A stretch of 16,707 nt of DNA. Source: a virus (lineage: Duplodnaviria; Heunggongvirae; Uroviricota; Caudoviricetes). Under the pieces are notes generated by a model that was not told the origin of the DNA, ran no database searches, and saw only the letters and a list, made by a program, of their open reading frames with translations. The translations under genes were made by a program, and so were the position numbers. The stretch lies in IMG/VR virus record IMGVR_UViG_2547132418_000023. One strand, written 5' to 3'. This document shows positions 1 to 16,707 of the stretch, one piece after another. Positions within the stretch are counted from its first letter, which is position 1. Each line of letters starts with the position of its first letter.

Positions 1-765
1 ATGCGCGAAAGGGTATCGCAGCAGTTAAAAGAAATTGAACGGCGGTATGATGTGAAAGTATTGTACGCCTGTGAATCAGGGAGTCGCGGTTGGGGATTTG
101 CCTCGCCCGACAGCGACTACGATGTACGGTTTTTGTATGTTCACCCGCTGGAATGGTATCTGCGAGTAGAGTCACCGCGCGATGTTATCGAGCTGCCCAT
201 CGATGACGAGTTAGATGTTTCCGGTTGGGAGTGGCGTAAGGCGCTGGGATTATTGAAAGGCGCGAACCCGACGCTGATAGAATGGCTGGATTCTCCGGTG
301 GTCTATCAACAAGATGAAGAAACGATAACGGCGCTTAAGGCAATGGTCCCAACGTGGTTTTCTCCGCTGCGTGCGCGCTGGCATTACTATTCGATGGCGC
401 AGAAAAACTTCCGCGGATATTTGCAGGGCGATGAAGTTCGACTGAAAAAATACTTTTACGTGCTGCGCCCGCTGCTGGCCGTTCGTTGGGTTGAAGCGGG
501 AAAAGGTGTACCGCCAATGCGTTTTTCCGAATTGCTGGCGGGAAGTGAGTTGGATGCGGCATTACGCGCAGAAATAGATGAATTGCTGGAGCGTAAACAG
601 CGTGCGGGTGAAGCGGAATATGGACTGCGCCGTCCTTTGTTACATGCGTTTATTCGTGCGGAACTGGCGCGCGGGGAAATTCCTCCGCTGTTACCAGACA
701 GCCGGGAAGGGGACGTTAAAGAACTGGATAGTTTACTGTACCAGACGGTAATGCGCCGGGCGTGA
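1..765 (+). CDS. Nucleotidyltransferase-fold protein (Pol-beta superfamily), 254 aa; 5' end coincides with the window edge so the true start may lie upstream
   Basis: ATG at position 1, TGA at 763-765. N-terminal motif GSRGWGFASPDSDYDV fits the nucleotidyltransferase signature hG[GS]-x(9-13)-DhD. Convergent to the tail operon. Confidence 0.6.
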   Translation: MRERVSQQLKEIERRYDVKVLYACESGSRGWGFASPDSDYDVRFLYVHPLEWYLRVESPRDVIELPIDDELDVSGWEWRKALGLLKGANPTLIEWLDSPVVYQQDEETITALKAMVPTWFSPLRARWHYYSMAQKNFRGYLQGDEVRLKKYFYVLRPLLAVRWVEAGKGVPPMRFSELLAGSELDAALRAEIDELLERKQRAGEAEYGLRRPLLHAFIRAELARGEIPPLLPDSREGDVKELDSLLYQTVMRRA

Positions 766-781
766 AGCCCGGCGTTATTTT
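754..781 (+). terminator. Rho-independent terminator for the nucleotidyltransferase gene, sitting between convergent genes
   Basis: Perfect 8-bp stem CGCCGGGC (754-761) / GCCCGGCG (767-774), 5-nt loop GTGAA, followed by TTATTTT. The stop codon lies in the loop. No U-tract in the minus orientation. Confidence 0.55.
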
Positions 782-1235
782 ACGGCTGATATTGCCAGCT
801 ACTGACTAAAGCGTACAAGTGGTTTGGGGAATAGCGCCAACTCTCCTTTAATTGCAGAAATTCGGCACAAAATTCGCTGCAAAACAGGCGTTCACGCTGT
901 TCTTTATTACCGGTAATAATTCCAAGCGCGCCGCGCCAATCATATTTTTTGCCATCATGTTTATGGAAAAACGCTTCCACGTCCTGAAGGCTGGCCTGGA
1001 GCGGCAGCATATCCCACTTATCCGCTGGCAATGGCATTATCTTTCCGCGTACACCGCGATCGCGCAGTGATGCAGAGTAACAAAGGTAACTCTTTTCACC
1101 ATGCTTAACGGCTAATTCACAGTGGGAATAACTACCGCGCGTGATTTTACGGGTAAGCCAGTCAGCCAGTCGGGCAATACCACGGTGCTCTGTTCGGCCC
1201 TTATAACAAGCGAGCCAGACAGTGGTTTTACTCAT
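780..1235 (-). CDS. Putative permuted papain-like amidase (YiiX/YaeF-like, NlpC/P60 superfamily), 151 aa, translationally coupled to the upstream fibre chaperone gene
   Basis: ATG at 1233-1235 overlaps the upstream stop (ATGA). Motifs YSHCE, GKKYDW and FCSEFC resemble the His-before-Cys arrangement I recall for YiiX-family proteins. Recalled from memory, not searched. Confidence 0.4.
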   Translation of the reverse strand: MSKTTVWLACYKGRTEHRGIARLADWLTRKITRGSYSHCELAVKHGEKSYLCYSASLRDRGVRGKIMPLPADKWDMLPLQASLQDVEAFFHKHDGKKYDWRGALGIITGNKEQRERLFCSEFCAEFLQLKESWRYSPNHLYALVSSWQYQP

Positions 1236-1846
1236 GCTTGCCAGCCTGTTGAATAATCGTAGTCGAGCACCGCCTGAATATCGTCCAGAGCTTCCACCGC
1301 CGCGATATGGTGCTGGGCATTGGCGAACAGGCGCATATCGTGATCCATTGTTACCGATTCAAACTGGGCGGCGATCTCGTTGGTTAACTCGATCAGACCG
1401 TTATTTTTAGTTTTCCACATTAACCCTGGAGGGATTTTTTTCTCCGCTCCCATTTTTGTGAGTGAGAGCTGTTGGATACGGCTGTTTGTATCACTGTGGA
1501 AGTGATGGTTGTTGATGATGATGTAATCGGTTGTGACGTAATCCCGTTTGGATTTTATTCTTCTTATTATATCCGCTTTTATTTCTGAAATAAATTTAAG
1601 CATTGAATCTGTATCAACTATCCATTCTCCTTTTTTTAGTTTGTGAAATCTATCTGGTGGTGGCGTAGAGATAAAGGATAAATCTTCACAGTTAATCCAA
1701 ATTGGGATATTAGCTTTCGCATATGTCTGCCATTGCTGATCAGTTATTTCAACTAAATGTTCTACTTTAGGATAGTTGTAGTGTTCTGTATCGATCCAGT
1801 CCAGAACGATAAATGTTTCAGGATCAAAACAAGCATATTTTGTCAT
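1232..1846 (-). CDS. Putative tail fibre assembly/chaperone protein, 204 aa
   Basis: ATG at 1844-1846, immediately downstream of the fibre gene. Its 5' half shares the low GC (about 25-40%) of the fibre tip. It lacks the C-terminal EWP motif I recall for lambda/P2 Tfa, so the call is mainly positional. Confidence 0.5.
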   Translation of the reverse strand: MTKYACFDPETFIVLDWIDTEHYNYPKVEHLVEITDQQWQTYAKANIPIWINCEDLSFISTPPPDRFHKLKKGEWIVDTDSMLKFISEIKADIIRRIKSKRDYVTTDYIIINNHHFHSDTNSRIQQLSLTKMGAEKKIPPGLMWKTKNNGLIELTNEIAAQFESVTMDHDMRLFANAQHHIAAVEALDDIQAVLDYDYSTGWQA

Positions 1847-1852
1847 TTTTAA

Positions 1853-3847
1853 TTACCATGATATTTTTACGAAGCCAGAGGCACCTTTTGTTCCGCTAGT
1901 ATTGCCTAAATTTGTTAACTCATTATTTTTATATTGAAAAGGAGGTAAATAAGATCCCCCAGCTCCTCCAGAACCATAACCTGTTGCTGCTGTTGGCTTT
2001 GCCATTACTGCTTTTTTTCCACCATTACTTAGGTTTTCTGTAATAACAGTACCTGAAGCCCCTCCCTTTCCATATATAGAATTTTCACCATTCTTTCCAG
2101 GATAAAATTCTGCAGATGACGGTATTGCATTTGGTGGAGTACCTTTAGGATCGTCACTGAATTTTATATAAGGCTGCGTAGTGTTAGAGTGATAAATGTT
2201 ATATCCTCCATGGCCACCTTTTGCAGTTAGATTAGAAAACGAAGAGTCTCCACCATCAAAGCTTTTTTGTGTTGTCTCTGTTTTATCATACGAATACTTT
2301 ATTTGTGAAACAGGTGGATTGTTCCAAAAAGGACCTCCATTACCTCCAGCTCCGATCTTTACTGAAAAATGCTGGCCTGGTGCCACGTTTAAGTAATCAA
2401 CAATCAATTCTCCTGCATTACCTCCGCAGGCTTCATAATGTGATGATTGTGCTCCTCCGGCCCCCCCACCTCCGCCGCCCATAATTTCCACAAATAATAT
2501 TGTTACGCCCTCAGGAACTATAAATGTTCCATTTGTAGTATAAAAACTAGTGTGGGTATGATTAGCTGGAGCTGCAGTTTTTGCCTTATCCATTGCCGCC
2601 TTCACCGCGCTCGGTGTCGCCGCCTCCGTCGTACTGTTGCTATCCGTCGCGTTATTAAGCTTCACAATCCCTTTTTGCGACAGGGTGCCGTCTGGAACAC
2701 CCGTAATCTGTCCCCATGGGTGAGTATGGTTTCCCGCAGCCTTACTATTCGCCAGGTCATATGCCGCCTTCACCGCGCTCGGTGTCGCCGCCTCCGTCGT
2801 ACTGTTGCTATCCGTCGCGTTATTAAGCTTCACAATCCCTTTTTGCGACAGGGTGCCGTCTGGAACACCCGTAATCTGTCCCCATGGGTGAGTATGGTTT
2901 CCCGCAGCCTTACTATTCGCCAGGTCATATGCCGCCTTCACCGCGCTCGGTGTCGCCGCCTCCGTCGTACTGTTGCTATTGGTCGCGTTATTAAGTTTCA
3001 CAATCCCTTTTTGTGTCAGGGTACCGTCAGGAATACTCGTAATCTGCCCCCAGGGGTGCGTATGACTACCCGCAGCCTTACTATTCGCCAGGTCATACGC
3101 CGCCTTCACTGCGCTCGGTGTCGCCGCCTCCGTCGTACTGTTGCTGTCTGTCGCGTTATTAAGCTTCACAATCCCTTTTTGTGTCAGCGTACCATCTGGT
3201 ATATCAGTAATCTGACTCCAGGTATGACGATGATTTCGAGCCTCAATCATTGCCGCTTTCACCGCTTTTGGCGTAGCCGCTTTGGTTTCGTCATCACTGT
3301 CAGTGGCGTTACTCAACTGTGTAAAGCCTTTTTGCGTTAACGTAGCATCAGGATGATTAGTCGAACGCTCATGTTCATCCAGTTGTGAATCAACATAATC
3401 CCGTGTTGCCAGTACAATACTGGGGTCAACGGTGAGTGTTACCGCAGTCGTGTTGGAAACTTCCATAATCAGGCGAATGCAAACTTGCTTACCGCTGCCG
3501 CCGGGTAATAGTGGTTTATACGACTCCGGGAATTTACCGATAGCAATGAGTTCACCATCGGTATCAAAAACGCCGACTTCACGTACATACCAGCCGCCGA
3601 TATTTTCGGGCAGCACGAGTTCCGCAATTAACCAGTTAGGGTTATTGGGTGCAACTGTTAATGTATTTAAATCACCGCGCCATACTTCATGGCGTAATTT
3701 AGTTTGGCTGACGGTGGGTTCATAATATTGTCCTCCGCTGTCACCAACAGCCATTTTTTGTAGATGAAGCTGTTTTTTATCCGCCAGAGCATTGGCAATT
3801 TTTGCCATTCCCCTGTCGGTGAGTAGAGTATAAAACTCATTGTCCAT
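1853..3847 (-). CDS. Tail fibre protein, 664 aa: P2 gpH-like N-terminal domain, 56-aa repeat shaft, glycine-rich C-terminal tip
   Basis: ATG at 3845-3847 with GGAG 6 nt upstream. The N-terminus (EVWRGDLN, IAELVLPENIGGW, ESYKPLLPGGSG, ATRDYVDSQLDEHE, HPDATLTQKGFTQLSNATDS, ATPKAVKAA) matches my recollection of P2 gpH. Repeats of HTHPWGQIT..PDGTL.QKGIVKLNNATDSNSTTEAATPSAVKAAYDLANSKAAG follow. C-terminus carries GGGGGGAGG, GAGGNGG, GGHGG, GSGGAGGS motifs. Confidence 0.9.
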   Translation of the reverse strand: MDNEFYTLLTDRGMAKIANALADKKQLHLQKMAVGDSGGQYYEPTVSQTKLRHEVWRGDLNTLTVAPNNPNWLIAELVLPENIGGWYVREVGVFDTDGELIAIGKFPESYKPLLPGGSGKQVCIRLIMEVSNTTAVTLTVDPSIVLATRDYVDSQLDEHERSTNHPDATLTQKGFTQLSNATDSDDETKAATPKAVKAAMIEARNHRHTWSQITDIPDGTLTQKGIVKLNNATDSNSTTEAATPSAVKAAYDLANSKAAGSHTHPWGQITSIPDGTLTQKGIVKLNNATNSNSTTEAATPSAVKAAYDLANSKAAGNHTHPWGQITGVPDGTLSQKGIVKLNNATDSNSTTEAATPSAVKAAYDLANSKAAGNHTHPWGQITGVPDGTLSQKGIVKLNNATDSNSTTEAATPSAVKAAMDKAKTAAPANHTHTSFYTTNGTFIVPEGVTILFVEIMGGGGGGAGGAQSSHYEACGGNAGELIVDYLNVAPGQHFSVKIGAGGNGGPFWNNPPVSQIKYSYDKTETTQKSFDGGDSSFSNLTAKGGHGGYNIYHSNTTQPYIKFSDDPKGTPPNAIPSSAEFYPGKNGENSIYGKGGASGTVITENLSNGGKKAVMAKPTAATGYGSGGAGGSYLPPFQYKNNELTNLGNTSGTKGASGFVKISW
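2594..3265. repeat. Tandem 168-bp direct repeats (4 copies, units starting 2594, 2762, 2930, 3098; degenerate 5th about 3251-3340) inside the fibre gene
   Basis: TGCCGCCTTCACCGCGCTCGGTGTCGCCGCCTCCGTCGTACTGTTGC recurs at an exact 168-bp period. Copies 1 and 2 are nearly identical, later copies progressively diverged. In-frame, encoding 56-aa repeats. Confidence 0.85.
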
Positions 3848-3849
3848 AA

Positions 3850-4482
3850 TTACTCCGGGTAAATAGATGTAATTTCAAGGCTCCATTGCCCTGTTCCGTA
3901 ATAAATCGATGTGTTGTGCTGTACTTCCCGTATCTGGAAAGGTAAAACCGTCGTCAGTTCACCACCATAAAGTGCACAGCCAATAACAGGAATAGCACTT
4001 TGGTTAATGATCCAGACGATTAATGCTTCCAGTTTTGAACGTGTGTTTTTATATTCATGAATGAGTTCTACCAAATCATTGAAAAGGTTTTCATCCAGGC
4101 CTTTATCCACCAGCGCTATATCCACCTTAAAAAAATAAGCCCTTCCCCCATATTCAAACCATTCTGAAATAGTTCCTGGTAATGAGAGTATTTCCAGCAC
4201 CCGCCGCACCGCCCAAATTGTTCCTTTATATTTATGCAGTTCAATGGCTTGTTTAATTAACTCGCGTTTCTCCCGCTCATCGGTGGTAAATAACCAACCT
4301 TCCAGCCCCTGAACGTGAAATTGTTCTGCAAGGGCTGGTAATGCCGAAGCATCAACCTGGTCGATCAGATAAACCATCAACGCCGTCAGATCGAGTTGGG
4401 CAAAACGCTCGGCGGCGATATTTGCCAGAATCGAAAAACGCTCATCGCTGGCAAGCGGCGGCGGTGGCAGCAATTTATCCAT
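3850..4482 (-). CDS. Baseplate/tail protein, P2 gpI-like, about 210 aa
   Basis: The ORF-track start at 4497 is TTG; in-frame ATG at 4480-4482 (MDKLLPPPP...) overlaps the gpJ stop by 8 nt. Positioned between gpJ and the fibre as in P2 J-I-H. Confidence 0.7.
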   Translation of the reverse strand: MDKLLPPPPLASDERFSILANIAAERFAQLDLTALMVYLIDQVDASALPALAEQFHVQGLEGWLFTTDEREKRELIKQAIELHKYKGTIWAVRRVLEILSLPGTISEWFEYGGRAYFFKVDIALVDKGLDENLFNDLVELIHEYKNTRSKLEALIVWIINQSAIPVIGCALYGGELTTVLPFQIREVQHNTSIYYGTGQWSLEITSIYPE

Positions 4483-5590
4483 CGCTGACTCCGGCAATCG
4501 TGACGTCTATTGCGGTGCATTCCGCCCACTCATGCGCCTGCAAAATACGTTTTGTAGGCATATTCAGCGCAACGTCATAGACGCCATCGACCTGTAACAC
4601 TTTGATTATCTGGTTTGGCACAATGTCCTGCCCCAGATGTTTCTGCCGCTGTTGCGTCCAGAGGCTAATCGCTTTACGCGCTGCAGCCAGCGTTGTCTCC
4701 TGATCGGCGGTGGTAAACAGCGTTAGCTGCGCACGGATCTCATATGGCACTCGAAGAGCGCATTTCGCACTCACTTTGTCGGTCAGCGGACGTTTTTTCT
4801 CCTTGCTAACCTCCTGTTCAATTTGCGCGAGCAGTTCTATTCCCGGCAGTCCGTTCAGAGTTAGCGGGTAGATCTCCACGCAGCCTTCTGGCAATCCCTC
4901 GTCCGGCCCCAGTACTGCAACGTCAATAATCGACTGGCTAACAGAAAGCGTATGAAAGCGGTAGGCACCATAGCTGCCCGCATTACTAAAGCTTTCTGGT
5001 GCCAGTTGGATACGCTGGCGCAATGCGTCATCGCTCTCTTCACCGCAGCCGCCCGTTGACGCAGTCAGGTTGGTTACGTTGATGTCATAATGACCAATCC
5101 TGTCGACCAGTGCGCTAATTTGTGCAGGCTGCCAGCCGTTACCCTGTTCACCTGCTGCGAGGCTGGTGGCAGGAACGGCGATATGCAAACTCCTGGCCGG
5201 AAGCAGAACATCTTCATCGGTGGCGAACATCACGCTATCAGAGGCACTGGCCCGCGTTCCCTGGGGAATCAGGATATTGCTGGTATACGCGCTGACGACC
5301 GAAAACTGCAACGTCGTTTTTGCCGGCTGCGCAGGCAAACGGTGAACGCCCACCAACTCCCCTAAATAATCCAGCATTGGCGCGCGGGAATACGCGACCA
5401 GGTTCTGTTTCGCCGCTTCCTGAATGGCGATGCGTACAAGGTTTTCACGATAGGCAAACAGGTCGATGAGCAACCGCTCAGCCTGTGCCGGATAGAGTTT
5501 TTTACCGCTGGCATCTTCGTATTGCGCAATCATCTCACTGGTAATTTGCGCAGGATCGCGGTCAATAAAATTGGGTTCGGCTATCGCCAT
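4475..5590 (-). CDS. Baseplate J-like protein (P2 gpJ / T4 gp6 family), 371 aa
   Basis: ATG at 5588-5590 with GGAGGGG Shine-Dalgarno. Size and position after the gpW-like gene; start overlaps the gpW stop by 10 nt. Confidence 0.8.
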   Translation of the reverse strand: MAIAEPNFIDRDPAQITSEMIAQYEDASGKKLYPAQAERLLIDLFAYRENLVRIAIQEAAKQNLVAYSRAPMLDYLGELVGVHRLPAQPAKTTLQFSVVSAYTSNILIPQGTRASASDSVMFATDEDVLLPARSLHIAVPATSLAAGEQGNGWQPAQISALVDRIGHYDINVTNLTASTGGCGEESDDALRQRIQLAPESFSNAGSYGAYRFHTLSVSQSIIDVAVLGPDEGLPEGCVEIYPLTLNGLPGIELLAQIEQEVSKEKKRPLTDKVSAKCALRVPYEIRAQLTLFTTADQETTLAAARKAISLWTQQRQKHLGQDIVPNQIIKVLQVDGVYDVALNMPTKRILQAHEWAECTAIDVTIAGVSDG

Positions 5591-5940
5591 AACCCCTCCG
5601 TTGAGTTGATAACGCCGTCAGCGGCGCGCCATTGCACACGTAACGTCAGATGTTCGCCGTCGATTACTGGTGTCACCTTCAGCAACCGACAGCGCGGCTC
5701 CCACTGGCGGATGGCTTCCACCGACTCCCGTACCACATGCGGAATTGCCCGCTCGATGGGGTAATCGATGTAGTGCCACAAGTTGCTGCCAAACAGCGGT
5801 CTGTGGGGATCACTGCCGCGCGGTGTGCGCAGAATGATGTGTATTGCCTGGTGAATATCATCCAGTCCGCAGACGTATTCTTCAGGCCGCTGCAAGGCCG
5901 GTTGCCAGTGCAGCGTTGAGGGTCGTGTTTTTGTGTTCAT
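5581..5940 (-). CDS. Baseplate wedge protein, gpW / T4 gp25 family, 119 aa
   Basis: ATG at 5938-5940. Motifs DDIHQAIHIILRTPRGS and IRQWEPRCRLLKVT align with P2 gpW (ILRTPVGS, LKWEPRV) as I recall it. Confidence 0.85.
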   Translation of the reverse strand: MNTKTRPSTLHWQPALQRPEEYVCGLDDIHQAIHIILRTPRGSDPHRPLFGSNLWHYIDYPIERAIPHVVRESVEAIRQWEPRCRLLKVTPVIDGEHLTLRVQWRAADGVINSTEGLWR

Positions 5941-5999
5941 GAGGGTATTTTCGCCCTGAACGGGCTGTGGCGATATTAAAGCGATTTAGAAAACTGATT

Positions 6000-6033
6000 G
6001 ATTAAAAAGAGAAAACCCGCCATCAGGCGGGTT
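6000..6033 (-). terminator. Intrinsic terminator inside the tail operon, between the spike and gpW genes
   Basis: Perfect 8-bp stem AACCCGCC (6014-6021) / GGCGGGTT (6026-6033), loop ATCA. In mRNA sense it is followed by UUUUCUCUUUUUAAU, just downstream of the spike stop. Confidence 0.55.
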
Positions 6034-6038
6034 AAACG

Positions 6039-6740
6039 TCAGTGTGTATGGTGGTTGGAGTTGCCACCGCTGTCCTGCAATGCGCCGCTGGCCTGAACGT
6101 TGCCGATCACGTTGACATTGCCAGTTATCGTGGCGGCGTTACCGATGCCTCCACTTCCTGCCATCCCGCCAAGCCAGGTGAGTTTTTTCATTACCGTGAC
6201 ATTGCCAGTAAAGGTGCTCATGGGCGCATCTACCGTCACTGCTGCCGCTTTAACATCGACCTTAGTGGCGTCGATGCTGACATCGGTCGCTTTAATATCG
6301 ACGGTATCGGAAGTCACGGTGACCTGTTGGGCTTTAATCTCAACGTTGGGTGATGTCAGGCGGGTACTGTCGATAACCTCAATCACGATTTTCTCGATAC
6401 CGCCGTTAATCGTCAGCTGGTGGGTGCTGCGGTCATATTCAAACGCTGCGCCATCAGAAAACTGGACGTAACGTTTATCGCGCGAGGCCACAGGCGCGGT
6501 GTCAACCGTAGAATAAACTGCGCCCAGCACCACGCCATCTTCACCGTTATTGTCCAGCAGAACTTCCACTTGCTCGCCCATATCCGGTAGCCAGTAGTCT
6601 TTATTGTCCTGGGAATTGCGTTGAAGTACCGCAAGCCAGTTGCTCTTCAGATTGTCACACTCCGGAAGCGTGACTCGCACCCGAACGCTGGTTTCGTCAA
6701 TATCGCTGATAATCCCCGTTTGACGGGTTACTCCTTTCAT
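6039..6740 (-). CDS. Baseplate central spike, P2 gpV-like, 233 aa
   Basis: ATG at 6738-6740 with AAGGAGG Shine-Dalgarno. N-terminal OB-like region, then beta-helix-like repeats (VTVTSDTVDIKATDVSIDATKVDVKAAAVTVDA). C-terminus ends NSNHHTH, an HxH apex motif of the kind that binds metal in P2-type spikes. Confidence 0.8.
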   Translation of the reverse strand: MKGVTRQTGIISDIDETSVRVRVTLPECDNLKSNWLAVLQRNSQDNKDYWLPDMGEQVEVLLDNNGEDGVVLGAVYSTVDTAPVASRDKRYVQFSDGAAFEYDRSTHQLTINGGIEKIVIEVIDSTRLTSPNVEIKAQQVTVTSDTVDIKATDVSIDATKVDVKAAAVTVDAPMSTFTGNVTVMKKLTWLGGMAGSGGIGNAATITGNVNVIGNVQASGALQDSGGNSNHHTH

Positions 6741-6749
6741 ATTTCCTCC

Positions 6750-7790
6750 TTACTGGCTGGTCGCTGGCCCGCGTGACACGTCGATTTCAGTGGTATAGCC
6801 GCTGCGCACAAAACTGTGAGTCGATTTATCAATCAGCCACTGACCGGAAAGCACGCCAAAATCGGTCAGTTCAATTTTATTGCCCGCCGTCAGTTCCGGG
6901 CAGCCCATCATCCTGAGCGTTCCGGTTTGTTGATATTCGTTGTGGCTGTCGAGCGCGGCGTTGGCCTTTGCCTGTGCCGCGCCAACGTCCGGCGCCCGAC
7001 TGTTCAGTTTTAGCGTGTCGGCACTGGTGCCGACTCCACGGGCAGACGGTTTTTGCTGGCTGTCGTGGGTGTAGATAACCAGTTCTTTTTTCTTACTATT
7101 TTGATGCTGTACGGTGGCATTTTTGTAGATACGGTTAATGGTATCTTTGAAGGTGAAATGCGAAACGTCTTTGCGGTCGATCGTTTTTACCGGCGCCAGG
7201 CAGCGCAGCGTGGGTAAATGCGAAAAAATCAGTTCTTTGGTGGTCACCTTTACCGCATAGCCATATTCGCTGGCCAGGCGCTTGAGAAATCCGACATCGG
7301 TTTCACCATACTGCGTTACCCGGTCGATGGTGAGCGGCTCGATTTTGCCCACCAGTTTCAGACCGTGCGTTTGGGCGATACGGCTGGCGATAGCCGAAAG
7401 CGTCGTTTCTTCAAAGCCCTGGCTGTTACGGGTACGCAGCGCCTGATTGACGGAAGTGGCGATGCCATCAATATTTACCGTAGAAGGTGGCGCTGAAATA
7501 TCAATTTTATCAATAATATACTGACCACAATCGAGCAGCTTTTCCCCCTGATAACCCATATGCAGCGCCAGCGTATCGCCTTTGCCGGGATACCACTCTT
7601 TTATCCAGCGTCCATCGGTGTCATCCAGTGTAATCGCGATGGTATCTGACTCGTTTTTGATGCTGTCGTGGTAACTGATGCTGGTGACATAGGGTGTGAT
7701 GTCATAAGTGATATCTTTATGCCCATACCAGAGGGTAAAAATGGGCGTGAGTGTGGCAAAGACGCCACCAGTTACGCTTATCTCAGCCAT
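6750..7790 (-). CDS. Baseplate hub, P2 gpD-like (late control gene D family), 346 aa
   Basis: ATG at 7788-7790. Sits upstream of the spike and after gpX as in the T-U-X-D block. The C-terminal region (TGTLRMMGCPELTAGNKIELTDFGVLSGQWLIDKSTHSF) resembles gpD. Confidence 0.8.
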   Translation of the reverse strand: MAEISVTGGVFATLTPIFTLWYGHKDITYDITPYVTSISYHDSIKNESDTIAITLDDTDGRWIKEWYPGKGDTLALHMGYQGEKLLDCGQYIIDKIDISAPPSTVNIDGIATSVNQALRTRNSQGFEETTLSAIASRIAQTHGLKLVGKIEPLTIDRVTQYGETDVGFLKRLASEYGYAVKVTTKELIFSHLPTLRCLAPVKTIDRKDVSHFTFKDTINRIYKNATVQHQNSKKKELVIYTHDSQQKPSARGVGTSADTLKLNSRAPDVGAAQAKANAALDSHNEYQQTGTLRMMGCPELTAGNKIELTDFGVLSGQWLIDKSTHSFVRSGYTTEIDVSRGPATSQ

Positions 7791-7987
7791 GGTGGGATCT
7801 CCGATAAGGTTTTATTGACGGAAATGACCGGAATAATGAGCTGAATACCGGAAGGCAGTACCGGGTAAATGGCGACATGTGGATTGGCGACGATTATGCG
7901 TTCATAAGCCAGCGCATCACCGTAGTAATGCCATGCCAGATTATCCCAGCGTTCGCCGTCGGTGGTGATATGTTCAAGGTATCGCAT
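7778..7987 (-). CDS. Tail protein X (P2 gpX-like, LysM-like), about 69 aa
   Basis: The ORF-track start at 7990 is GTG; ATG at 7985-7987 overlaps the upstream stop (TGATG). Motif WDNLAWHYYGD...ANPHV...LPSGIQLIIP resembles P2 gpX. Confidence 0.75.
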   Translation of the reverse strand: MRYLEHITTDGERWDNLAWHYYGDALAYERIIVANPHVAIYPVLPSGIQLIIPVISVNKTLSEIPPWLR

Positions 7988-8940
7988 CACCAGATCCTCG
8001 TAATGGTCGCGGCAGCAAGCTGGCTCACTGTGGGAGTGGTTTGTTGTACCGTTGTTCGTGCCTGATCAACCAACGTTGCGGCTTTATCAAACGTCGCTTC
8101 GGCGATGTCGCTGGTAATGTCGTCGAAAAGCGCCTGAGCATGGTCAACCAGTGTACTGGCGTCATTGGCGCAGTCCCGGATACCTGGCATGTTACCCAGT
8201 AAAGTTTTAATCTGCGCCGACAACGCTTTTGGGAGTCCTGCCAGCGTTTGCAGATCCATTGGCTGTTTAAACAGGGTTTCGATGGCGTCGATTGTCTTTT
8301 TCAATGACGTAATTATCTTTTCACACTTTTCTTTTAACACTTTGGCCTCTTTAATCATTGCTTTCACTTTTGCCACCGTTTTTTTAATATCTTCAATGGC
8401 TTGTGTCAGTTCATCCAGCATCTCTTTGGCCTTACGCATACCTTCTTCGATGGCGTTTAATATCTGATCAAACCAGGACTCCACCATGTCGGGAAAATCG
8501 CTCGCCTTTTCCTCAATGTTAGGCTCCTGGGTGGTAATCGCCGGAGGTAAAAGTGGATTTTTAGGATCGCCGGTGTACTCCTGGAGCGACATCGTTCCGT
8601 TTTGGGCAATCACATTGCCCCAGGGATCGGTGTGCTGGTGGGTGGCGGTTAGCTCCGTAATTACAAACCAGCCGCGATAATCGCCATTGCCAAATACCAG
8701 TGCCATCGCCTTGTGAGCAAGCATGGCTTCACGCAGTCGATTAAGCTCTGTTGTGGGCTGGCAAAACTGGCTGTGCAGGGAAAATTCCAGCGCCAGCATA
8801 TCCAGCTTATCGCCAATAAACTGCACACCGGGTTTGCCTTCTATACGGGCATGTGTGGCGTAATCCACGCCCATTGTGCTTTTAAAGCCGTCCCAGAATG
8901 CGACAACCTTAAATTCAATCTCTCCTAAAACGGCATACAT
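7987..8940 (-). CDS. gpU-like tail protein with a roughly 165-aa helical C-terminal extension, 317 aa
   Basis: ATG at 8938-8940 overlaps the tape-measure stop (TGATG). N-terminal GDYRGWFVITELTATHQHTDPWGNV resembles P2 gpU (GWFVITSISRQH). The C-terminal half is K/E/A-rich and heptad-like (EEGMRKAKEMLDELTQAIEDIKKTVAKVKAMIKEAKVLKEK). Confidence 0.7.
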   Translation of the reverse strand: MYAVLGEIEFKVVAFWDGFKSTMGVDYATHARIEGKPGVQFIGDKLDMLALEFSLHSQFCQPTTELNRLREAMLAHKAMALVFGNGDYRGWFVITELTATHQHTDPWGNVIAQNGTMSLQEYTGDPKNPLLPPAITTQEPNIEEKASDFPDMVESWFDQILNAIEEGMRKAKEMLDELTQAIEDIKKTVAKVKAMIKEAKVLKEKCEKIITSLKKTIDAIETLFKQPMDLQTLAGLPKALSAQIKTLLGNMPGIRDCANDASTLVDHAQALFDDITSDIAEATFDKAATLVDQARTTVQQTTPTVSQLAAATITRIW

Positions 8941-11315
8941 CAGGCATACCCCCGGCGCTGTTGTTGCGCCATTACGTCGTTAATCATTCTTTCAAGTTCG
9001 CGTTTACTCATCGTCAACACGTTCTGAATCTCTTTAGTGGTGTTTTGTCCGTTACCCTGCACGGTAATCTGTGGCGAAAAATTCACCTGAACTTTTCCAG
9101 AGGAACGGGAAGGTAGCGTCGCCGGTTTGGTTACGGATTTACCAGGTAAAGAGGCCAATGCGGGTTTGGCGGCTGTATTTTTTGCCGCAGGTGCCGATGG
9201 CGGCGTTGTCGTTTTACTGGATGGCGCGAGTTGTTTCCCCACCGGAGGCGTTAAAATCGCACCGGCAACGCCTGGAACAACGCTCGCGGGGGAGACGGAT
9301 GCGGTATTAGTCGTGCTTGTAATAGCTGTAGCCGATCCTTCTGTACTAATACCCATCGTGGTTTTTAGCCAGTCTGGGATGACGTTTTTGACCTGATCAA
9401 TAATGCCTTTCAGAGCGGGGAAGGCATTCATTATGCCGTCGGCCAGGCTAGCCAGAAGATTGCTGCCGAACTCGCTAAAACTCGCAGGCATTTCAACACC
9501 AAACCAATTCATCACACTGGAAAAGGCGCTATAGAACAACTCCAGCGGCGACCAGTCGAGAATTAACCGACAAATTTCTGCAATGCCGCCGTCAAAGGCC
9601 GTGGTGATACGTTGCCAGATGGTAGAAAAGAACCTGGAGATAGGCTCCCAGTTGCGATAAATCAGATAAGCAGCGCCCGCAATCGCAGTGATGACCAGAC
9701 CAATGGGATTCATCAATAAAACCCTACCCAACCAGAAGACGGTCTGACCTGCCTGTTTCAGTGCGCCAATCAGGCCACGACCAAGCAGTTGCGTTAGCCA
9801 TTTTGCACCGCCACCCAATGACTTAACCGCTGATAGCATCTTACTTGCCCCGCCTGTGAGTGCCAGACTTGCCCTGACTTTCAGGAAGATATCGACCAGA
9901 CGAATAAACGGCGAGGCGATGAAGTTCGCGCCCAGTTTTAAAACATTCAGCGCGCCGTTAAACAGCCAAATCGCCCCGACGATTTTCGCAATGTTTTGCA
10001 CCAGTGCCGGGTGCTCACGTAGCCAGGCGCTGAACTGGCGAACAACCGGCGTAAGGCTTTGTGCCAGCTCGCCAATCAGCGGCATTAATTGCAAGCCAAT
10101 GCTGAGCCATAAATCATTTAACGCCAGCTGTAACGCTTTAGTCTGTTCAATGGGCGAGGCCATTTGCGCAGAAAAGTCGGCATCAATCAGATTCTTGCTG
10201 CTGGCTTGCATGGCAGAGGCTTTTAACTGGCGATATTCCTCCATATTCGCCAGCATAGGTGCCAGGAATTCCACAGTTTGCGCATCGCCGAACATTTCGC
10301 CCAGATTAAATTGCGTCACCATCGATTGCAGCGCATTGCTGCGAGCAGATAAATCTTCAATCTGCATAGTGCGTTTGAAGGTGCCGAGGATCGCCGGATT
10401 CATCTTCTCAAGCTGCATTTGCACGATATGAGTCATGGCTTCGCTAACACCCATACCGTTTTGCTGATGCTCAAGCAGAGAGCCTTGCAGATCAACGCCC
10501 TGGCTGGCGAACCAGTTATCGGTTTTTTTCGAAAAGGTGGTTTGCAGAAAGTGGTCGAAATTCTCCGCCGCCGCACTGGCGCTGGCCCCGTTTTTCATGG
10601 CGATCTGCATGATGGCGGTCAGTTCAGCCATACCTTCCAGACCCTGAGCGCCGGTTTTACCTGCAAATTTCTCTATCCACTGCGTTTGTTCGGCAACGGC
10701 AGGCCCACCGCTTTTGCTAATGCCATACATCATGTTTTGCGTGGCGTGGAAATTTTCCGGGGCAATATTCAATCGATCATGAGTCGCGAGCGCGGCATTC
10801 GCCCACGTTTCAGCACTTTCGCGCGTGGCGGTGGCAGCTTTGGCGATCTCCGGCATATAACGGTTGAGATCCTGCATCGACGACAAATTGCCTTCGATCA
10901 GCGTTTGGGCTGCGTTCTGTAAGGTGGTCTGCTGCTGGTTAAAATCCATGCTCCAGTCGCGCAGATTAAGGCTGAGCGTCTCGCGGGTTGTAGCATTCAT
11001 CCCACCTTTGGTCGCCATATTGACCATGTTGTCCTGGAACTCATATGGCAACTTCCAGTCGGGGGCTTCAACATTGAATACCTTGCTAAATTGCCCGGCA
11101 AATGTTTGGGTTTTCTCCATTAGATCAGCGCGGTTCCGGCTATTTTCCTCCAGGCGGAGAGCAGAATCGGCAAGTTGCTGCGTTAGTTTGATTACTGTCG
11201 CTTGCTGAGAAGAGAGAGCTAACAAAGTTCTGGCGTTGAGTGAGCCGTAACGGGCTATTGCCTGCGTCAACGTCTCATTACGCGCCTGAAGCTGGGTAAT
11301 AATATCGTTGGCCAA
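8940..11315 (-). CDS. Tail tape measure protein, 791 aa
   Basis: Long, mostly alpha-helical, hydrophobic central segments, Pro/Ala/Ser/Thr-rich stretch near the C-terminus, located after the chaperone gene. Start is TTG at 11313-11315 (in-frame stop at 11328-11330, no nearby ATG), preceded by AAAGAGAAA. Confidence 0.8.
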   Translation of the reverse strand: MANDIITQLQARNETLTQAIARYGSLNARTLLALSSQQATVIKLTQQLADSALRLEENSRNRADLMEKTQTFAGQFSKVFNVEAPDWKLPYEFQDNMVNMATKGGMNATTRETLSLNLRDWSMDFNQQQTTLQNAAQTLIEGNLSSMQDLNRYMPEIAKAATATRESAETWANAALATHDRLNIAPENFHATQNMMYGISKSGGPAVAEQTQWIEKFAGKTGAQGLEGMAELTAIMQIAMKNGASASAAAENFDHFLQTTFSKKTDNWFASQGVDLQGSLLEHQQNGMGVSEAMTHIVQMQLEKMNPAILGTFKRTMQIEDLSARSNALQSMVTQFNLGEMFGDAQTVEFLAPMLANMEEYRQLKASAMQASSKNLIDADFSAQMASPIEQTKALQLALNDLWLSIGLQLMPLIGELAQSLTPVVRQFSAWLREHPALVQNIAKIVGAIWLFNGALNVLKLGANFIASPFIRLVDIFLKVRASLALTGGASKMLSAVKSLGGGAKWLTQLLGRGLIGALKQAGQTVFWLGRVLLMNPIGLVITAIAGAAYLIYRNWEPISRFFSTIWQRITTAFDGGIAEICRLILDWSPLELFYSAFSSVMNWFGVEMPASFSEFGSNLLASLADGIMNAFPALKGIIDQVKNVIPDWLKTTMGISTEGSATAITSTTNTASVSPASVVPGVAGAILTPPVGKQLAPSSKTTTPPSAPAAKNTAAKPALASLPGKSVTKPATLPSRSSGKVQVNFSPQITVQGNGQNTTKEIQNVLTMSKRELERMINDVMAQQQRRGYA

Positions 11316-11416
11316 AATTGTTTCTCTTTAATTATTGATAATGGCCCACTGGTTATTTTTCTAAAAAAGGGGCTGGGAAGAAATAAACCTGGCGGGCTTT
11401 GAAGAACTCGCAGACA

Positions 11417-11822
11417 TCAGGTCTGGGAGCCATATTCGATCTTTATTTGGTCGCTGGCTTCATCCAGCCAGTTGCTAAAGTCATCTATGGTGAGCGCGTC
11501 TATCTCACTGGGTGGAAAGCGAAACCATCTCGCCAGTAGCGCCATTGCCTGCCATAGCTGGGGAGGATTCTGTAACCACGGTAAGCATGGATTGAAATCG
11601 TTTCTGCAATGCCTGGTAATCCAGCAAATCCATTTCAGCTAAATCTTCTGGCACCAGTCCGGTCATCGCCGCCATTAGCGGTTCATCCCACTCTTCGGGT
11701 TTTTCGCTGATCCGGCGCGCGTTGCGCATATCTTTTACTTTCAGGCGACGTAATTGCAGCGAGTCGATAGTATTTCCTGCTGCCGACGTAAATGGGAACT
11801 GTAAGATATAATGCTCTTTCAT
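11417..11822 (-). CDS. Putative frameshift-extended chaperone (E+E'-like) produced by a +1/-2 shift near the 3' end of the chaperone gene
   Basis: The +1 frame is open from 11638 to a TGA at 11417-11419 and encodes protein-like sequence past the chaperone stop (...WFRFPPSEIDALTIDDFSNWLDEASDQIKIEYGSQT). The -1 frame stops after 8 codons. Slip site not identified. Confidence 0.4.
11505..11822 (-). CDS. Tail assembly chaperone (P2 gpE-like), 105 aa
   Basis: ATG at 11820-11822 with AAGGA Shine-Dalgarno. Position between tube and tape measure. DLAEMDLLDYQALQKRF resembles the gpE family. Confidence 0.75.
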   Translation of the reverse strand: MKEHYILQFPFTSAAGNTIDSLQLRRLKVKDMRNARRISEKPEEWDEPLMAAMTGLVPEDLAEMDLLDYQALQKRFQSMLTVVTESSPAMAGNGATGEMVSLSTQ

Positions 11823-11848
11823 TTTGTATCCTTATTTATGTTGCGAAG

Positions 11849-11868
11849 TTCGGGGCCGTAGCCCCGAA
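11849..11868 (-). other. Intergenic RNA stem-loop between tube and chaperone genes, no U-tract
   Basis: Perfect 8-bp inverted repeat TTCGGGGC (11849-11856) / GCCCCGAA (11861-11868), loop CGTA, in the 47-nt tube-chaperone gap. Confidence 0.5.
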
Positions 11869-11872
11869 TAAT

Positions 11873-13821: not shown

Positions 13822-14008
13822 GTACAATTTCCTCTACGTTATTTTGTTCTTCCTGAGTGATGACAGGAGTCAGATGATTGCGGGCAATCATGGTCATGAC
13901 CCACTCGTTGTCTTCTGGCAGATCAATTTCACTGTTCGGCCACAATAAGATTTCTTGTCCATCGGCAAGGGTGACGCCGCTTGCCGGGCCGTTGTAGATG
14001 TATTTCAT
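13811..14008 (-). CDS. Small conserved tail-module protein (Mu gp38-like), 65 aa
   Basis: ATG at 14006-14008 overlaps the upstream stop (ATGA). Position directly before the sheath, as in Mu-like phages. Family assignment from memory. Confidence 0.4.
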   Translation of the reverse strand: MKYIYNGPASGVTLADGQEILLWPNSEIDLPEDNEWVMTMIARNHLTPVITQEEQNNVEEIVHGS

Positions 14009-14460: not shown

Positions 14461-14564
14461 ATGAGGTGTACCTTAATTACCGCTCACTTCGTTATCGTTG
14501 AGATGTATTATGAAGCAGTGAAGGTGAAGAATCTTTTAATGTGATTTAGAGAAAAAATTGAATG

Positions 14565-14601
14565 GCTATAAAAAATCCCCACACTTACGTAAAGGTGGGG
14601 A
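14565..14601 (-). terminator. Intrinsic terminator separating the lysis cassette from the tail operon
   Basis: 7-bp stem TCCCCAC (14576-14582) / GTGGGGA (14595-14601) with a partly self-complementary loop. In mRNA sense followed by UUUUUUAUAGCC, just after the 14607 stop. Confidence 0.5.
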
Positions 14602-14606
14602 TGTAT

Positions 14607-14921: not shown

Positions 14922-14933
14922 CGGCCCCTCTGA

Positions 14934-15539: not shown

Positions 15540-15541
15540 CA

Positions 15542-15829: not shown

Positions 15830-16125
15830 ACGATATCTCCTGATAAGTGAGCGTTTAGTGTCGTCAGAACCCGCCAGTGAAGAATGAAAAAAGCTTTAAT
15901 AAATAAGTTTAAAAAATAGATTCTCTATAAATGAACATGCCCGCTAATAAATCGACTCAGCAATTAAAGAGCAAACGGTGACCTGGCGAATAAGCGCGTC
16001 ATTATGCAGGGAAAAGATGATGGTGGATCGTAGGAATAGTCGATAGTTATTTGATTTTTAAAGTTTGTTTAAGAAAGTCAGCGACTGTGAGGGAAACGAT
16101 CTTTTTACACTACAGGTAAAAATAA

Positions 16126-16145
16126 TACTGTATGTGCATACAGTA
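16126..16145. promoter_or_regulatory. LexA (SOS) box
   Basis: TACTGTATGTGCATACAGTA is a 20-bp palindrome with CTGT-N8-ACAG, one mismatch from the E. coli recA operator as I recall it (TACTGTATGAGCATACAGTA). It lies in the divergent control region. Confidence 0.7.
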
Positions 16146-16365: not shown

Positions 16366-16707
16366 ATGATACGAAAATCAAAAGAGATGGCCCGGACACC
16401 GGAGATCATTAACGACCTGGCTTTTCATGCATCGCAAGTTCTGATTGAAAGCATCAATCTCGACAGTTCATCGGCAGAAAATGTGGGTTTTGCCATTGCC
16501 GACCGAATGATGCGTAACTGGGGCGGACAAAGCATTTATTTCCCTAAGGGGATCTCCGGACGAGCATCGGAGCGTGACTACCAAATCTATAGCGAGTGCG
16601 ATGGGCGCAACTACGCCGAATTAGCGAAGAAATATAATCTGACGCTGCAATGGATTTATAAGATAGTCAAACGTGTACATACGGAGAAGCAGCAGAGTCG
16701 TATGTAG
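16366..16707 (+). CDS. Mor/C-family transcriptional activator (Mu middle/late activator-like), 113 aa
   Basis: ATG at 16366 with GGAG upstream, TAG at 16705-16707. GGQSIYFPKG...DYQIYSECDGRNYAELAKKYNLTLQWIYKIVKR parallels Mu Mor (GGGQVYIPRG...DLRIWNDFNGRNVSELTTRYGVTFNTVYKAIRR). Confidence 0.8.
   Translation: MIRKSKEMARTPEIINDLAFHASQVLIESINLDSSSAENVGFAIADRMMRNWGGQSIYFPKGISGRASERDYQIYSECDGRNYAELAKKYNLTLQWIYKIVKRVHTEKQQSRM

What the first reader, a model, noticed from the sequence alone, without database searches (positions are those of the whole stretch)
5941..6038. Strong intrinsic terminator inside the tail operon, after the spike gene
A perfect 8-bp GC-rich hairpin followed by UUUUCUCUUUUU sits in the 98-nt gap between the spike (gpV-like) and gpW genes. 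This would attenuate transcription into the wedge/fibre genes (W-J-I-H-chaperone), setting lower stoichiometry for them than for the sheath/tube/hub block, or it marks the seam where two originally separate operons were joined. The gpW gene also has a weak Shine-Dalgarno, so an internal promoter or antitermination may be needed.
Basis: seen in the sequence. Interest (0 to 1): 0.45.

Follow-up and report, generated by a model that had tools for sequence, protein, structure and literature searches.

The report
Terminator plus restart promoter between tail genes
The hairpin is a real transcription stop signal, but it sits next to a conserved phage-activator promoter that restarts transcription at the next gene's start codon, so the gap is a boundary between two tail-gene operons, not a brake inside one.

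Summary
On the minus (coding) strand, 5 nt after the stop codon of the gpV-like spike gene, a perfect 8-bp stem-loop (6033-6014, dG about -15 kcal/mol) is followed by UUCUCUUUUU. This strict pattern occurs once in the window and in none of 200 shuffles.

The rest of the 98-nt gap (5992-5941) matches a Mu Mor/C-type activator-dependent late promoter:
- a dyad, CTAA-N6-TTAA;
- no -35 element;
- a -10 hexamer, GAAAAT, placed so that the predicted start is the A of the gpW ATG. That would make the mRNA leaderless and would explain the missing Shine-Dalgarno.

This module abuts gpW in all 61 distinct related loci examined (Enterobacterales, Burkholderiales, Pseudomonas). The same box precedes the lysis, head and tail-chaperone gene blocks of four BcepMu-like phages. 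It occurs a second time in the window (14552-14501), again behind a terminator.

The window is a tail-only, tailocin-like island with its own Mor-family activator. It is present in about 195 of 5426 complete E. coli genomes. The Salmonella counterpart carries gtrABC in this same seam.

The promoter is ancestral. The terminator is found only in the closest relatives of this island (E. coli and a few related genera). No transcript data were available, so function is inferred.

The parts
6039..6740 (-). gpV-like baseplate spike gene, last gene of the upstream late transcription unit
   Evidence: Pfam Phage_base_V, E 5e-8; annotated 'phage baseplate assembly protein V' in E. coli S10
6014..6033 (-). 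Terminator stem-loop AACCCGCC-UGAU-GGCGGGUU (8 bp, 6 G-C pairs)
   Evidence: dG -14.8 kcal/mol; 0 of 200 shuffles. Invariant in four E. coli variants. Kept with a stem-preserving change in Superficieibacter (ACCCGCCG-CAA-CGGCGGGT).
6004..6013 (-). U tract of the terminator (UUCUCUUUUU; with the two paired U's, UUUUCUCUUUUU)
   Evidence: tail score 3.2-4.3
5976..5989 (-). Dyad CTAA-ATCGCT-TTAA, proposed binding site for the island's Mor-family activator; centre at -42.5 relative to the predicted start
   Evidence: T and A of the half-sites are invariant or nearly so in 43 diverse sequences. The same box lies upstream of the lysis, head and chaperone genes in four phages. A matrix trained only on those other sites ranks this site second in the window with a score of 24.4, against a shuffle maximum of 11.2. 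Mu C binds a 16-bp imperfect dyad centred at -43.5 (PMC2582627). Mu Pmom has TTAT-N6-ATAA with its -10 one base further away.
5947..5952 (-). -10-like hexamer GAAAAT at -12..-7 relative to the A of the gpW ATG; no -35 hexamer
   Evidence: Positions 2 (A) and 6 (T) of this hexamer are invariant in 43 of 43 aligned sequences while the flanks vary. All 19 candidate promoters listed also have A at position 2 and T at position 6.
5938..5940 (-). gpW start codon; its A (5940) is the predicted transcription start, giving a leaderless mRNA
   Evidence: The 52-nt promoter model ends 0 nt (45 loci), 1 nt (8) or 2 nt (8) before the ATG in 61 distinct loci. No Shine-Dalgarno. The transcript start is inferred, not measured.
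5581..5940 (-). gpW (gp25-like baseplate wedge) gene, first gene of the W-J-I-H-chaperone unit; overlaps gpJ by 10 nt
   Evidence: Pfam GPW_gp25; ORF list
14570..14602 (-). Second terminator: hairpin AUCCCCAC...GUGGGGAU (14602-14575), then a T run (14575-14570; its first T closes the stem), after the lysis cassette
   Evidence: fold -15.5 kcal/mol
14501..14552 (-). Second copy of the Mor-box promoter module (dyad CTAA-ATCACA-TTAA 14549-14536; -10 CATAAT 14512-14507), upstream of gp37/sheath/tube, with a normal leader
   Evidence: matrix score 23.0 and 25.9, against shuffle maxima of 9-11
15851..15902 (-). Weak candidate for a third Mor-box promoter just upstream of the holin Shine-Dalgarno (right half-site degenerate)
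   Evidence: Score 8.5-9.1, not above shuffles. The position matches the holin promoter candidates of PhiKM and KP12.
16366..16707 (+). Mor/C-family transcription activator, divergent from the lysis-tail cluster; proposed to act on the boxes above
   Evidence: Pfam Mor PF08765, E 2e-37. 44-48% identical to the late activators of phages PhiKM and BcepMu, and 34% to the HTH region of Mu C.

Best explanation
The 98-nt spacer is a stop-and-restart junction between two late transcription units of a tail-only island derived from a BcepMu-like (Mu-type) phage. First, RNA polymerase that has transcribed gp37-sheath-tube-tape measure-hub-spike meets a canonical Rho-independent terminator 5 nt after the spike stop codon, and most transcripts end there. 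Second, about 14 nt further on, a dimer of the island's own Mor/C-family activator binds the dyad CTAA-N6-TTAA (5989-5976). This dyad takes the place of a -35 element. The activator helps sigma-70 polymerase open the weak -10 GAAAAT (5952-5947). Third, transcription starts at or within 1-2 nt of the A of the gpW ATG (5940). The W-J-I-H-chaperone message is therefore leaderless, which is why gpW has no Shine-Dalgarno. Wedge and fibre synthesis thus depend on this promoter, not on read-through. The promoter is ancestral to the whole phage family. The terminator is an addition found only in this island's closest relatives. Shown here: the sequence features, their conservation, the shared box at other late gene blocks, and the presence of the activator gene. 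Inferred: termination efficiency, activator binding, the exact start point and leaderless translation.
For: Terminator:
- Searches give the features and the statistics.
- It is invariant in E. coli variants, where the only changes in the gap fall in the low-information spacer.
- The stem is kept in Superficieibacter despite a changed loop.

Promoter:
- In 76 loci (61 distinct upstream sequences) from Enterobacterales, Burkholderiales, Pseudomonas and Neisseriales the V-W gap is never zero. The same module always abuts gpW, even where the gap is 330-1570 nt.
- In the alignment of 43 sequences the invariant columns are the T/A of the half-sites and A2 and T6 of the hexamer. These two are the bases that matter most in a sigma-70 -10 element.
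- In each of four complete phage genomes (PhiKM, KP12, BcepMu, Komp_PAO1_1) four of the best matrix hits lie upstream of the holin or lysis genes, the Mu-I-equivalent head gene, the tail chaperone gene and gpW. They are the four best in three of the genomes, and they all point in the direction of the late genes.
- A matrix trained only on the 12 non-W sites ranks the W-upstream site first in 59 of 61 loci.
- The geometry matches Mu: C binds a dyad centred at -43.5, and late promoters have a -10 but no -35 (PMC2582627). In Pmom the spacing differs from ours by 1 bp.
- The island encodes a Mor-family protein related to the single late activators of BcepMu and PhiKM.

Terminator followed by an activator-dependent promoter is a recurrent layout. 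It occurs at the chaperone promoters of PhiKM, KP12 and BcepMu, at the second module in the window, and after the Mu C gene before Plys.
Against: - No transcript 5' or 3' ends were available for this island.
- A dRNA-seq table for Salmonella SL1344 in late stationary phase lists starts for gtrA, the holin and the Mor gene of the orthologous island, but none at gpW (PMC3963941, supplement 13). This fits an uninduced activator-dependent promoter, but it is not positive evidence.
- The box (TTAA-N6-TTAA) differs from Mu's C box (TTAT-N6-ATAA), and no binding data exist.
- The GC-rich inverted repeat around the -10 shows moderate covariation. That suggests an RNA role, which a strictly leaderless transcript would not explain.
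- In Pectobacterium the ATG lies 9 nt, not 7 nt, after the hexamer, so a 1-2-nt leader is possible.
- The third expected box, upstream of the holin, is weak in the window.
Confidence: 0.68

Rival explanations
1. The hairpin is a partial terminator (attenuator) inside one long tail operon. Wedge and fibre genes are expressed only from read-through, at a lower level than the sheath/tube/hub genes.
For: The hairpin and U tract are real and well placed. The interrupted U tract (two C's) could allow some read-through.
Against: A conserved promoter-like module lies between the hairpin and gpW, and it is present in all relatives, with or without a terminator. gpW has no Shine-Dalgarno, and in relatives its AUG sits at the foot of a GC stem, so read-through RNA looks poorly suited to translating W. 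The spike (V) is needed in fewer copies than the wedge and fibre proteins, which goes against the proposed direction of the dosage step (general knowledge of contractile-tail baseplates).
Confidence: 0.1
2. The terminator is a leftover from a cargo gene (moron) that once sat in the V-W seam and was later lost. It is kept by chance, or because it is harmless, and not because it is needed to end the spike transcript.
For: The seam is an insertion hot spot. It holds gtrABC plus REP elements in the Salmonella island. In other genera it holds a DpnII/MboI-like nuclease domain protein, an AbiJ-domain protein, DUF4145, an FkbM methyltransferase and an acyltransferase. In Phytobacter and Dryocola, inserts sit at or in the hairpin itself.
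Against: The hairpin begins 5 nt after the spike stop codon, with no trace of other sequence between them. It is conserved across E. coli and Superficieibacter with stem-preserving change. The origin of the element does not alter what it does now, so this reading is compatible with the best explanation.
Confidence: 0.12
3. The dyad is an operator for a repressor, and TAATAT (5978-5973) is the -10 of an ordinary sigma-70 promoter. Transcription then starts about 30 nt before the ATG, and the GC stem lies in the 5' UTR.
For: TAATAT is a 5-of-6 match to the -10 consensus and is common in the V-W gaps. The GC stem shows covariation, as expected if it is transcribed.
Against: The last T of that hexamer is not conserved. 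The second window copy and all four Komp_PAO1_1 sites have TAAAAG. No -35 lies 17 bp upstream; in short-gap loci that position is the conserved C-terminal coding sequence of V. The downstream hexamer keeps A2 and T6 in 43 of 43 sequences at fixed spacing. No gpW transcript start was seen in uninduced Salmonella.
Confidence: 0.06
4. The hairpin does not terminate transcription. It acts as a 3'-end stabiliser or processing site for the upstream mRNA, or is a small REP-like palindrome with no role in the cluster.
For: A similar GC hairpin without a U tract follows the tube gene (11868-11849). REP-like elements occur at this spot in Salmonella and Phytobacter.
Against: Unlike those elements, this hairpin is followed at once by a 10-12-nt U-rich tract, on the coding strand only. 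That is the defining feature of intrinsic terminators.
Confidence: 0.04

Closest known systems
[quoted passage not shown]
   Same: An activator of the Mor family is encoded in the same element. There is an AT-rich dyad of two 4-bp half-sites separated by 6 bp in place of a -35. There is a recognisable -10. The dyad centre is about 43 bp upstream of the start (-42.5 here, -43.5 in Mu). Several such promoters each head a block of lysis or morphogenesis genes, and a terminator lies directly upstream of one of them (Mu C gene terminator before Plys).
   Different: The half-sites are TTAA...TTAA, not TTAT...ATAA. Mu has no promoter and no gap between its V and W homologues: gp45 and gp46 overlap, and PP lies further upstream, before P. 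The predicted start coincides with the start codon. Activator dependence has not been tested here.
Canonical Rho-independent (intrinsic) terminators of E. coli
   Same: A GC-rich 8-bp stem, a tetraloop, a U-rich tract directly after the stem, and a position just after a stop codon.
   Different: The U tract is interrupted by two C's. Efficiency has not been measured. The terminator is followed within 14 nt by a promoter module.
Leaderless phage mRNAs such as lambda cI transcribed from PRM (from general knowledge)
   Same: The predicted transcript begins at the A of the AUG and has no Shine-Dalgarno. It depends on an activator-assisted promoter.
   Different: Here the gene is a structural baseplate gene that heads a long polycistronic late message. 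The leaderless start is predicted from spacing only.
R-type tailocins (for example the R pyocins of Pseudomonas aeruginosa)
   Same: A chromosomal cluster of contractile-tail genes with a holin and lysis cassette and a dedicated regulator, and without head, packaging, replication or integration genes.
   Different: The ancestry is BcepMu-like, not P2-like. The regulator is a Mor/C-type activator, not PrtN/PrtR. No particle or killing activity has been shown for this island.

Membership tests
Rho-independent terminator | Stable GC-rich stem-loop on the transcribed strand | tested here: met
   8 perfect pairs, 6 of them G-C, dG -14.8 kcal/mol
Rho-independent terminator | U-rich tract immediately 3' of the stem | tested here: met
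   UUCUCUUUUU directly after the stem; tail score 3.2-4.3. The strict pattern is absent from 200 shuffles.
Rho-independent terminator | Release of transcripts at the U tract | not testable with these tools
   Needs Term-seq or in vitro transcription
Mor/C-dependent promoter (Mu middle/late class) | A Mor/C-family activator encoded by the same element | tested here: met
   PF08765, E 2e-37; homology to the BcepMu, PhiKM and Mu activators
Mor/C-dependent promoter (Mu middle/late class) | Imperfect dyad of about 14-16 bp centred near -43.5 and replacing the -35 | tested here: met
   CTAA-N6-TTAA centred at -42.5 relative to the start predicted from the -10. The Mu value comes from PMC2582627 and Pmom. 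The start point itself is predicted.
Mor/C-dependent promoter (Mu middle/late class) | Recognisable -10 hexamer, no -35 hexamer | tested here: met
   GAAAAT, with A2 and T6 invariant in 43 of 43 relatives. The sigma-70 consensus scan finds no standard promoter in the gap.
Mor/C-dependent promoter (Mu middle/late class) | The same box heads the other late gene blocks of the element | tested here: met
   Four sites per phage genome. A second strong copy in the window at 14552-14501. Cross-trained matrix.
Mor/C-dependent promoter (Mu middle/late class) | Same recognition sequence as Mu C or Mor | tested here: not met
   TTAA-N6-TTAA against TTAT-N6-ATAA in Pmom. This is the same architecture with a different specificity, as expected for a protein only 34% identical to Mu C.
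Mor/C-dependent promoter (Mu middle/late class) | Transcription requires the activator | not testable with these tools
   Needs reporter fusions or in vitro transcription with and without the Mor protein
Leaderless mRNA | 5' end of the transcript at the A of the AUG | not testable with these tools
   Predicted only. The hexamer ends 7 nt before the A, and the model end abuts the ATG in 45 of 61 loci.
Leaderless mRNA | No Shine-Dalgarno within reach of the start codon | tested here: met
   The nearest purine run (AGGG) ends 13 nt before the ATG
R-type tailocin | Tail and lysis genes without head, packaging, replication or integration genes | tested here: met
   Island bounded by host genes (yjbD side and lysC) in E. 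coli S10; Pfam content
R-type tailocin | Production of bactericidal tail particles | not testable with these tools
   No experimental report was found in the held library

The most novel reading that the evidence does not exclude
In the whole BcepMu-type family, baseplate-wedge and tail-fibre synthesis is driven by a dedicated Mor-box promoter that fires exactly at the gpW start codon. The message is leaderless. On any read-through RNA from the spike gene, the GC stem around the -10 buries the AUG, which has no Shine-Dalgarno. W-J-I-H are therefore made only when this promoter fires. Because the V-W seam is insulated in this way, it has become a standing landing site for defence and O-antigen-modifying cargo, such as gtrABC in Salmonella. 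In the domesticated E. coli island an added terminator makes the stem dispensable, and the stem is decaying there.
Probability: 0.3. Interest if true: 0.6.

Novelty: new member of a known kind. Interest (0 to 1): 0.42.

Why it matters
It turns an unexplained gap into a concrete, testable regulatory map for a tail-only island. The island is carried by about 3.6% of complete E. coli genomes, and its counterpart is in Salmonella Typhimurium LT2 (tags STM4198-STM4219). The map has two, perhaps three, Mor-dependent units separated by terminators. It predicts the recognition box of the BcepMu-type late activators and four late promoters per phage genome, none of which is annotated in the records examined. 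It explains why gpW lacks a ribosome-binding site. It also identifies the V-W seam as the place where cargo such as the phase-variable gtr operon is inserted. For anyone wanting to induce or engineer these particles, the Mor protein and these boxes are the obvious handles.

Tried and rejected
- Near-identity search of the phage collection with 1.4 kb around the gap found nothing. The relatives are prophages and chromosomal islands, and distant BcepMu-like phages were found only at protein level.
- Rfam gave no family in the window.
- No small ORF lies within the gap.
- The sigma-70 consensus scan found no standard promoter in the gap.
- The strict patterns T[TC]AAA-N4-T[TA]TAA, TAAA-N4-TTTA and TTAA-N6-TTAA were too rigid for BcepMu and for the window's holin region, so I replaced them with position matrices.
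- The E. coli 'ST131 tailocin' paper concerns a P2-like prophage, not this island. The BceTMilo and Pseudomonas tailocin papers gave no promoter or terminator information on this family.
- The original BcepMu paper is not in the held library. No paper in the library describes late promoters of BcepMu-like phages.
- Salmonella transcription-start tables gave no start at gpW.
- I considered the TAATAT -10 reading, the simple attenuator and the pure RNA-stabiliser reading, and ranked them low for the reasons given under the rival explanations.

Full report
**1. The observation**

All genes of the cluster lie on the minus strand. Read on that strand, the gpV-like spike gene (6039-6740, Pfam Phage_base_V) ends in TGA. 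Five bases later comes AACCCGCC-TGAT-GGCGGGTT (6033-6014), followed by TTCTCTTTTT (6013-6004). The ATG of the gp25/gpW-like gene is at 5940.

The hairpin folds at -14.8 kcal/mol alone and is the dominant structure in context. The general terminator-like class of the scan is not enriched in the window (23 found against 19.8 expected). A strict version of the pattern is: perfect 8-bp stem, at least 6 G-C pairs, loop of 3-8, at least 7 T in the next 10. It occurs once, at this site, and never in 200 dinucleotide-preserving shuffles. The + strand has no T run after the stem.

**2. Where the window comes from**

The 1.4 kb around the gap matches nothing in the phage collection at DNA level. It is found once per genome, on the chromosome, in 197 of 5426 complete E. 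coli genomes.

In E. coli S10 the cluster lies between the yjbD side and lysC. It contains a holin, an SLT transglycosylase, a membrane protein, gp37, sheath, tube, chaperone, tape measure, U, X, D, V, W, J, I, a fibre and fibre-assembly genes, plus a divergent Mor-family gene. There are no head, terminase, transposase or integrase genes. This is the gene content of an R-type tailocin, but no activity is documented.

At protein level the nearest phages are BcepMu-like transposable phages: BcepMu, phiE255, E. coli phage PhiKM and Klebsiella phage KP12.

**3. What else is in the gap**

A second intergenic gap in the window, between the lysis cassette and gp37, has the same layout. It holds a hairpin plus T run (14602-14570), followed by TCTAAATCACATTAAAAG. 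This matches TCTAAATCGCTTTAATAT in the V-W gap.

I collected 80 loci encoding gpW relatives from one genome per species and measured the V-W spacer in each.
- The spacer is never zero.
- It is 45-64 nt in most Enterobacterales, Burkholderia and Pseudomonas loci.
- It is 97-258 nt in the closest relatives of the window.
- It is 330-1570 nt in about fifteen loci.

In every case the roughly 50 nt that abut gpW carry the same module:
- a dyad, TTAA-N6-TTAA (often CTTTAAACGCCTTTAATAT);
- then 23 nt of variable sequence;
- then a hexamer such as GATACT, AATACT, GACAAT, CAACAT or GAAAAT;
- then 6-8 nt and the ATG.

In the alignment of 43 diverse sequences, the invariant columns are the T/A of the half-sites and positions 2 (A) and 6 (T) of the hexamer. 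Those two are the most important bases of a sigma-70 -10 element. The hexamer occupies -12..-7 relative to the A of the ATG, and the dyad centre lies at -42.5.

**4. Link to Mor/C activators**

Published work on Mu gives three points (PMC2582627):
- the late promoters have a -10 but no -35;
- C binds a 16-bp imperfect dyad centred at -43.5;
- C protects about -30 to -55.

In Mu's own Pmom I read TTAT-GCCCCA-ATAA, with TAAGAT starting 39 nt from the first T. The spacing here is 38 nt.

The island's Mor protein is a clear family member (PF08765, E 2e-37). It is 44-48% identical to the single late activators of PhiKM and BcepMu, and 34% identical to the HTH part of Mu C.

A matrix built from the dyad and hexamer columns gave these results:
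- In PhiKM, KP12 and Komp_PAO1_1 the four best sites lie upstream of the holin or lysis genes, the Mu-I-equivalent head gene, the tail chaperone gene and gpW. In BcepMu the same four positions are among the six best hits.
- All of these sites are intergenic and all point the way of the late genes.
- In PhiKM, KP12 and Komp_PAO1_1 they score far above the PhiKM shuffles (23-36 against a shuffle best of 15.6). In BcepMu only the gpW and head-gene sites do (27.4 and 19.4).
- In Komp_PAO1_1 the four sites share an almost identical 22-bp box.

To avoid circularity I retrained the matrix on the 12 non-W sites only.
- It ranks the W-upstream site first in 59 of 61 distinct 8-kb loci.
- Its end abuts the ATG, with an offset of 0 nt in 45 loci, 1 nt in 8 and 2 nt in 8.
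- In the window the two top hits are 14552-14501 (25.9) and 5992-5941 (24.4), against a shuffle maximum of 11.2.
- A third candidate just upstream of the holin (15902-15851) is weak.

**5. The terminator in context**

The hairpin is present in the window, in a near-identical metagenome contig (L002) and in two Superficieibacter species, where the loop differs but the stem is kept. Inserts interrupt it in Phytobacter (a REP-like insert of about 80 nt flanked by CGGCG) and in Dryocola. It is absent from the Salmonella island and from all loci with short gaps. Four E. coli variants sampled from the 195 matching genomes differ in the gap only at three spacer positions between the dyad and the -10.

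The promoter module is therefore ancestral, and the terminator is a feature of this island's closest relatives only.

A terminator followed by a Mor box is a recurring layout:
- The chaperone-gene promoters of PhiKM, KP12 and BcepMu sit directly behind a GC hairpin plus T run.
- The window's second module does the same.
- In Mu the terminator of the C gene directly precedes Plys.

Mu itself has no V-W gap, because gp45 and gp46 overlap.

**6. The seam as an insertion site**

In the Salmonella counterpart of the island (LT2 tags STM4198-STM4219), gtrABC (STM4204-4206) and REP elements lie between the spike stop codon and the gpW Mor box.

Other genera carry, at the same place, ORFs with a DpnII/MboI-type nuclease domain, an AbiJ N-terminal domain, DUF4145, an FkbM methyltransferase domain or an acyltransferase-3 domain. 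All of these inserts lie upstream of the promoter module. This is what one expects if the module marks the start of an independent unit.

**7. Mechanism proposed**

Transcripts of the gp37-to-spike unit end at the hairpin. The Mor-family dimer binds the dyad and lets sigma-70 polymerase use the weak -10. Transcription starts at, or 1-2 nt before, the A of the gpW ATG, giving a leaderless W-J-I-H-chaperone message. gpJ overlaps gpW by 10 nt, so its translation is probably coupled to that of gpW.

The sequence features, their conservation and the shared box are shown here. Termination efficiency, activator binding, the start point and leaderless translation are inferred.

**8. Open point**

The -10 is bracketed by a GC-rich inverted repeat, for example GGGGGC-GATACT-GCCCCC-ATG. 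Pairing holds in 69.6% of cells. Covariation is 0.338, against 0.155 in shuffles and at most 0.235 in slid controls.

A strictly leaderless transcript would not contain this stem. It may instead act on read-through RNA in phages that lack the terminator, by masking the AUG. In the clade that has the terminator the stem is degenerate, and in the window a different small hairpin is preferred. This is one clade only, so it is an observation and not a test.

**9. Experimental data looked for**

A dRNA-seq table for S. Typhimurium SL1344 in late stationary phase lists starts for gtrA, for the holin (432 nt upstream of its CDS) and for the Mor gene, but none for gpW. Two other data sets held nothing for these genes. 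This fits a silent activator-dependent promoter and argues mildly against a constitutive one. It is not positive evidence.

**10. Verdict**

The hairpin is real and is very probably a working terminator.

The element combines two known kinds, an intrinsic terminator and a Mor/C-type late promoter. The promoter sits in a position and has a box sequence that no paper in the held library describes, and it has a predicted leaderless start. I found no prior description of late promoters in BcepMu-like phages or of this island's regulation in that library. The original BcepMu paper could not be read.

Noticed in passing
window 1-16707; L001 (E. coli S10) 13610-31308: The whole window is a tail-only island: lysis cassette, BcepMu-type contractile tail genes and a divergent Mor activator, with no head, terminase or transposase genes. 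It lies between the yjbD side and lysC and is present in about 195-197 of 5426 complete E. coli genomes. This is tailocin-like gene content. No functional report was found in the held library.
   Followed up: partly
L087 (Salmonella Infantis SARB27) 8676-12000: The orthologous Salmonella island (LT2 tags STM4198-STM4219) carries the gtrABC O-antigen glucosylation operon (STM4204-4206) and REP elements exactly in the V-W seam, upstream of the conserved gpW promoter module.
   Followed up: partly
L011, L022, L024, L029, L059, L060, L071, L074, L081 (about 2400-4000 in each locus): Cargo ORFs inserted between V and the gpW promoter module in other genera: a DpnII/MboI-type nuclease domain protein, AbiJ_NTD4 proteins, DUF4145 proteins, an FkbM methyltransferase and an acyltransferase-3. 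The seam looks like a hot spot for defence and surface-modification genes.
   Followed up: partly
window 14501-14602 (-): A second terminator plus Mor-box promoter module lies between the lysis cassette and gp37. It has a normal leader and Shine-Dalgarno, and its -10 (CATAAT) is better than that of the gpW promoter.
   Followed up: yes
window 11849-11868 (-): A strong hairpin, UUCGGGGC-UACG-GCCCCGAA (-16.9 kcal/mol in context), follows the tube gene and has no U tract. In phages PhiKM, KP12 and BcepMu the equivalent hairpin has a T run and is followed by a Mor-box promoter for the chaperone gene. No such box was detected here.
   Followed up: partly
L082 (BcepMu) 18809-18864: The Mor-box model upstream of gp32 (the Mu I equivalent) ends 1 nt before an in-frame ATG at 18862. 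The annotated start at 18850 may therefore lie upstream of the transcript start. This would be a second predicted leaderless late gene.
   Followed up: no
L003 (Phytobacter) about 3825-4000; L004 (Dryocola) about 3743-4000: An insert of about 80 nt containing REP-like palindromes, flanked by CGGCG, splits the right arm of the terminator hairpin in Phytobacter. Dryocola has a different insert starting in the hairpin loop.
   Followed up: no
window 5941-5957 (-) and alignment A3 columns 47-65: A GC-rich inverted repeat brackets the predicted -10 of the gpW promoter and shows moderate covariation across genera. It is degenerate in the clade that has the upstream terminator. Its role is unexplained.
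   Followed up: partly
window 15830-16365: A 536-nt AT-rich region lies between the holin and the Mor gene. In Salmonella SL1344 dRNA-seq the holin transcript starts 432 nt upstream of its CDS, only 24 bp from the divergent Mor start. This suggests back-to-back promoters and a long holin leader.
   Followed up: no
window 1-775 (+): An RlaP-family nucleotidyltransferase gene converges on the end of the tail cluster. It is followed by the strongest terminator-like hairpin in the window (753-775, 9 pairs).
   Followed up: no
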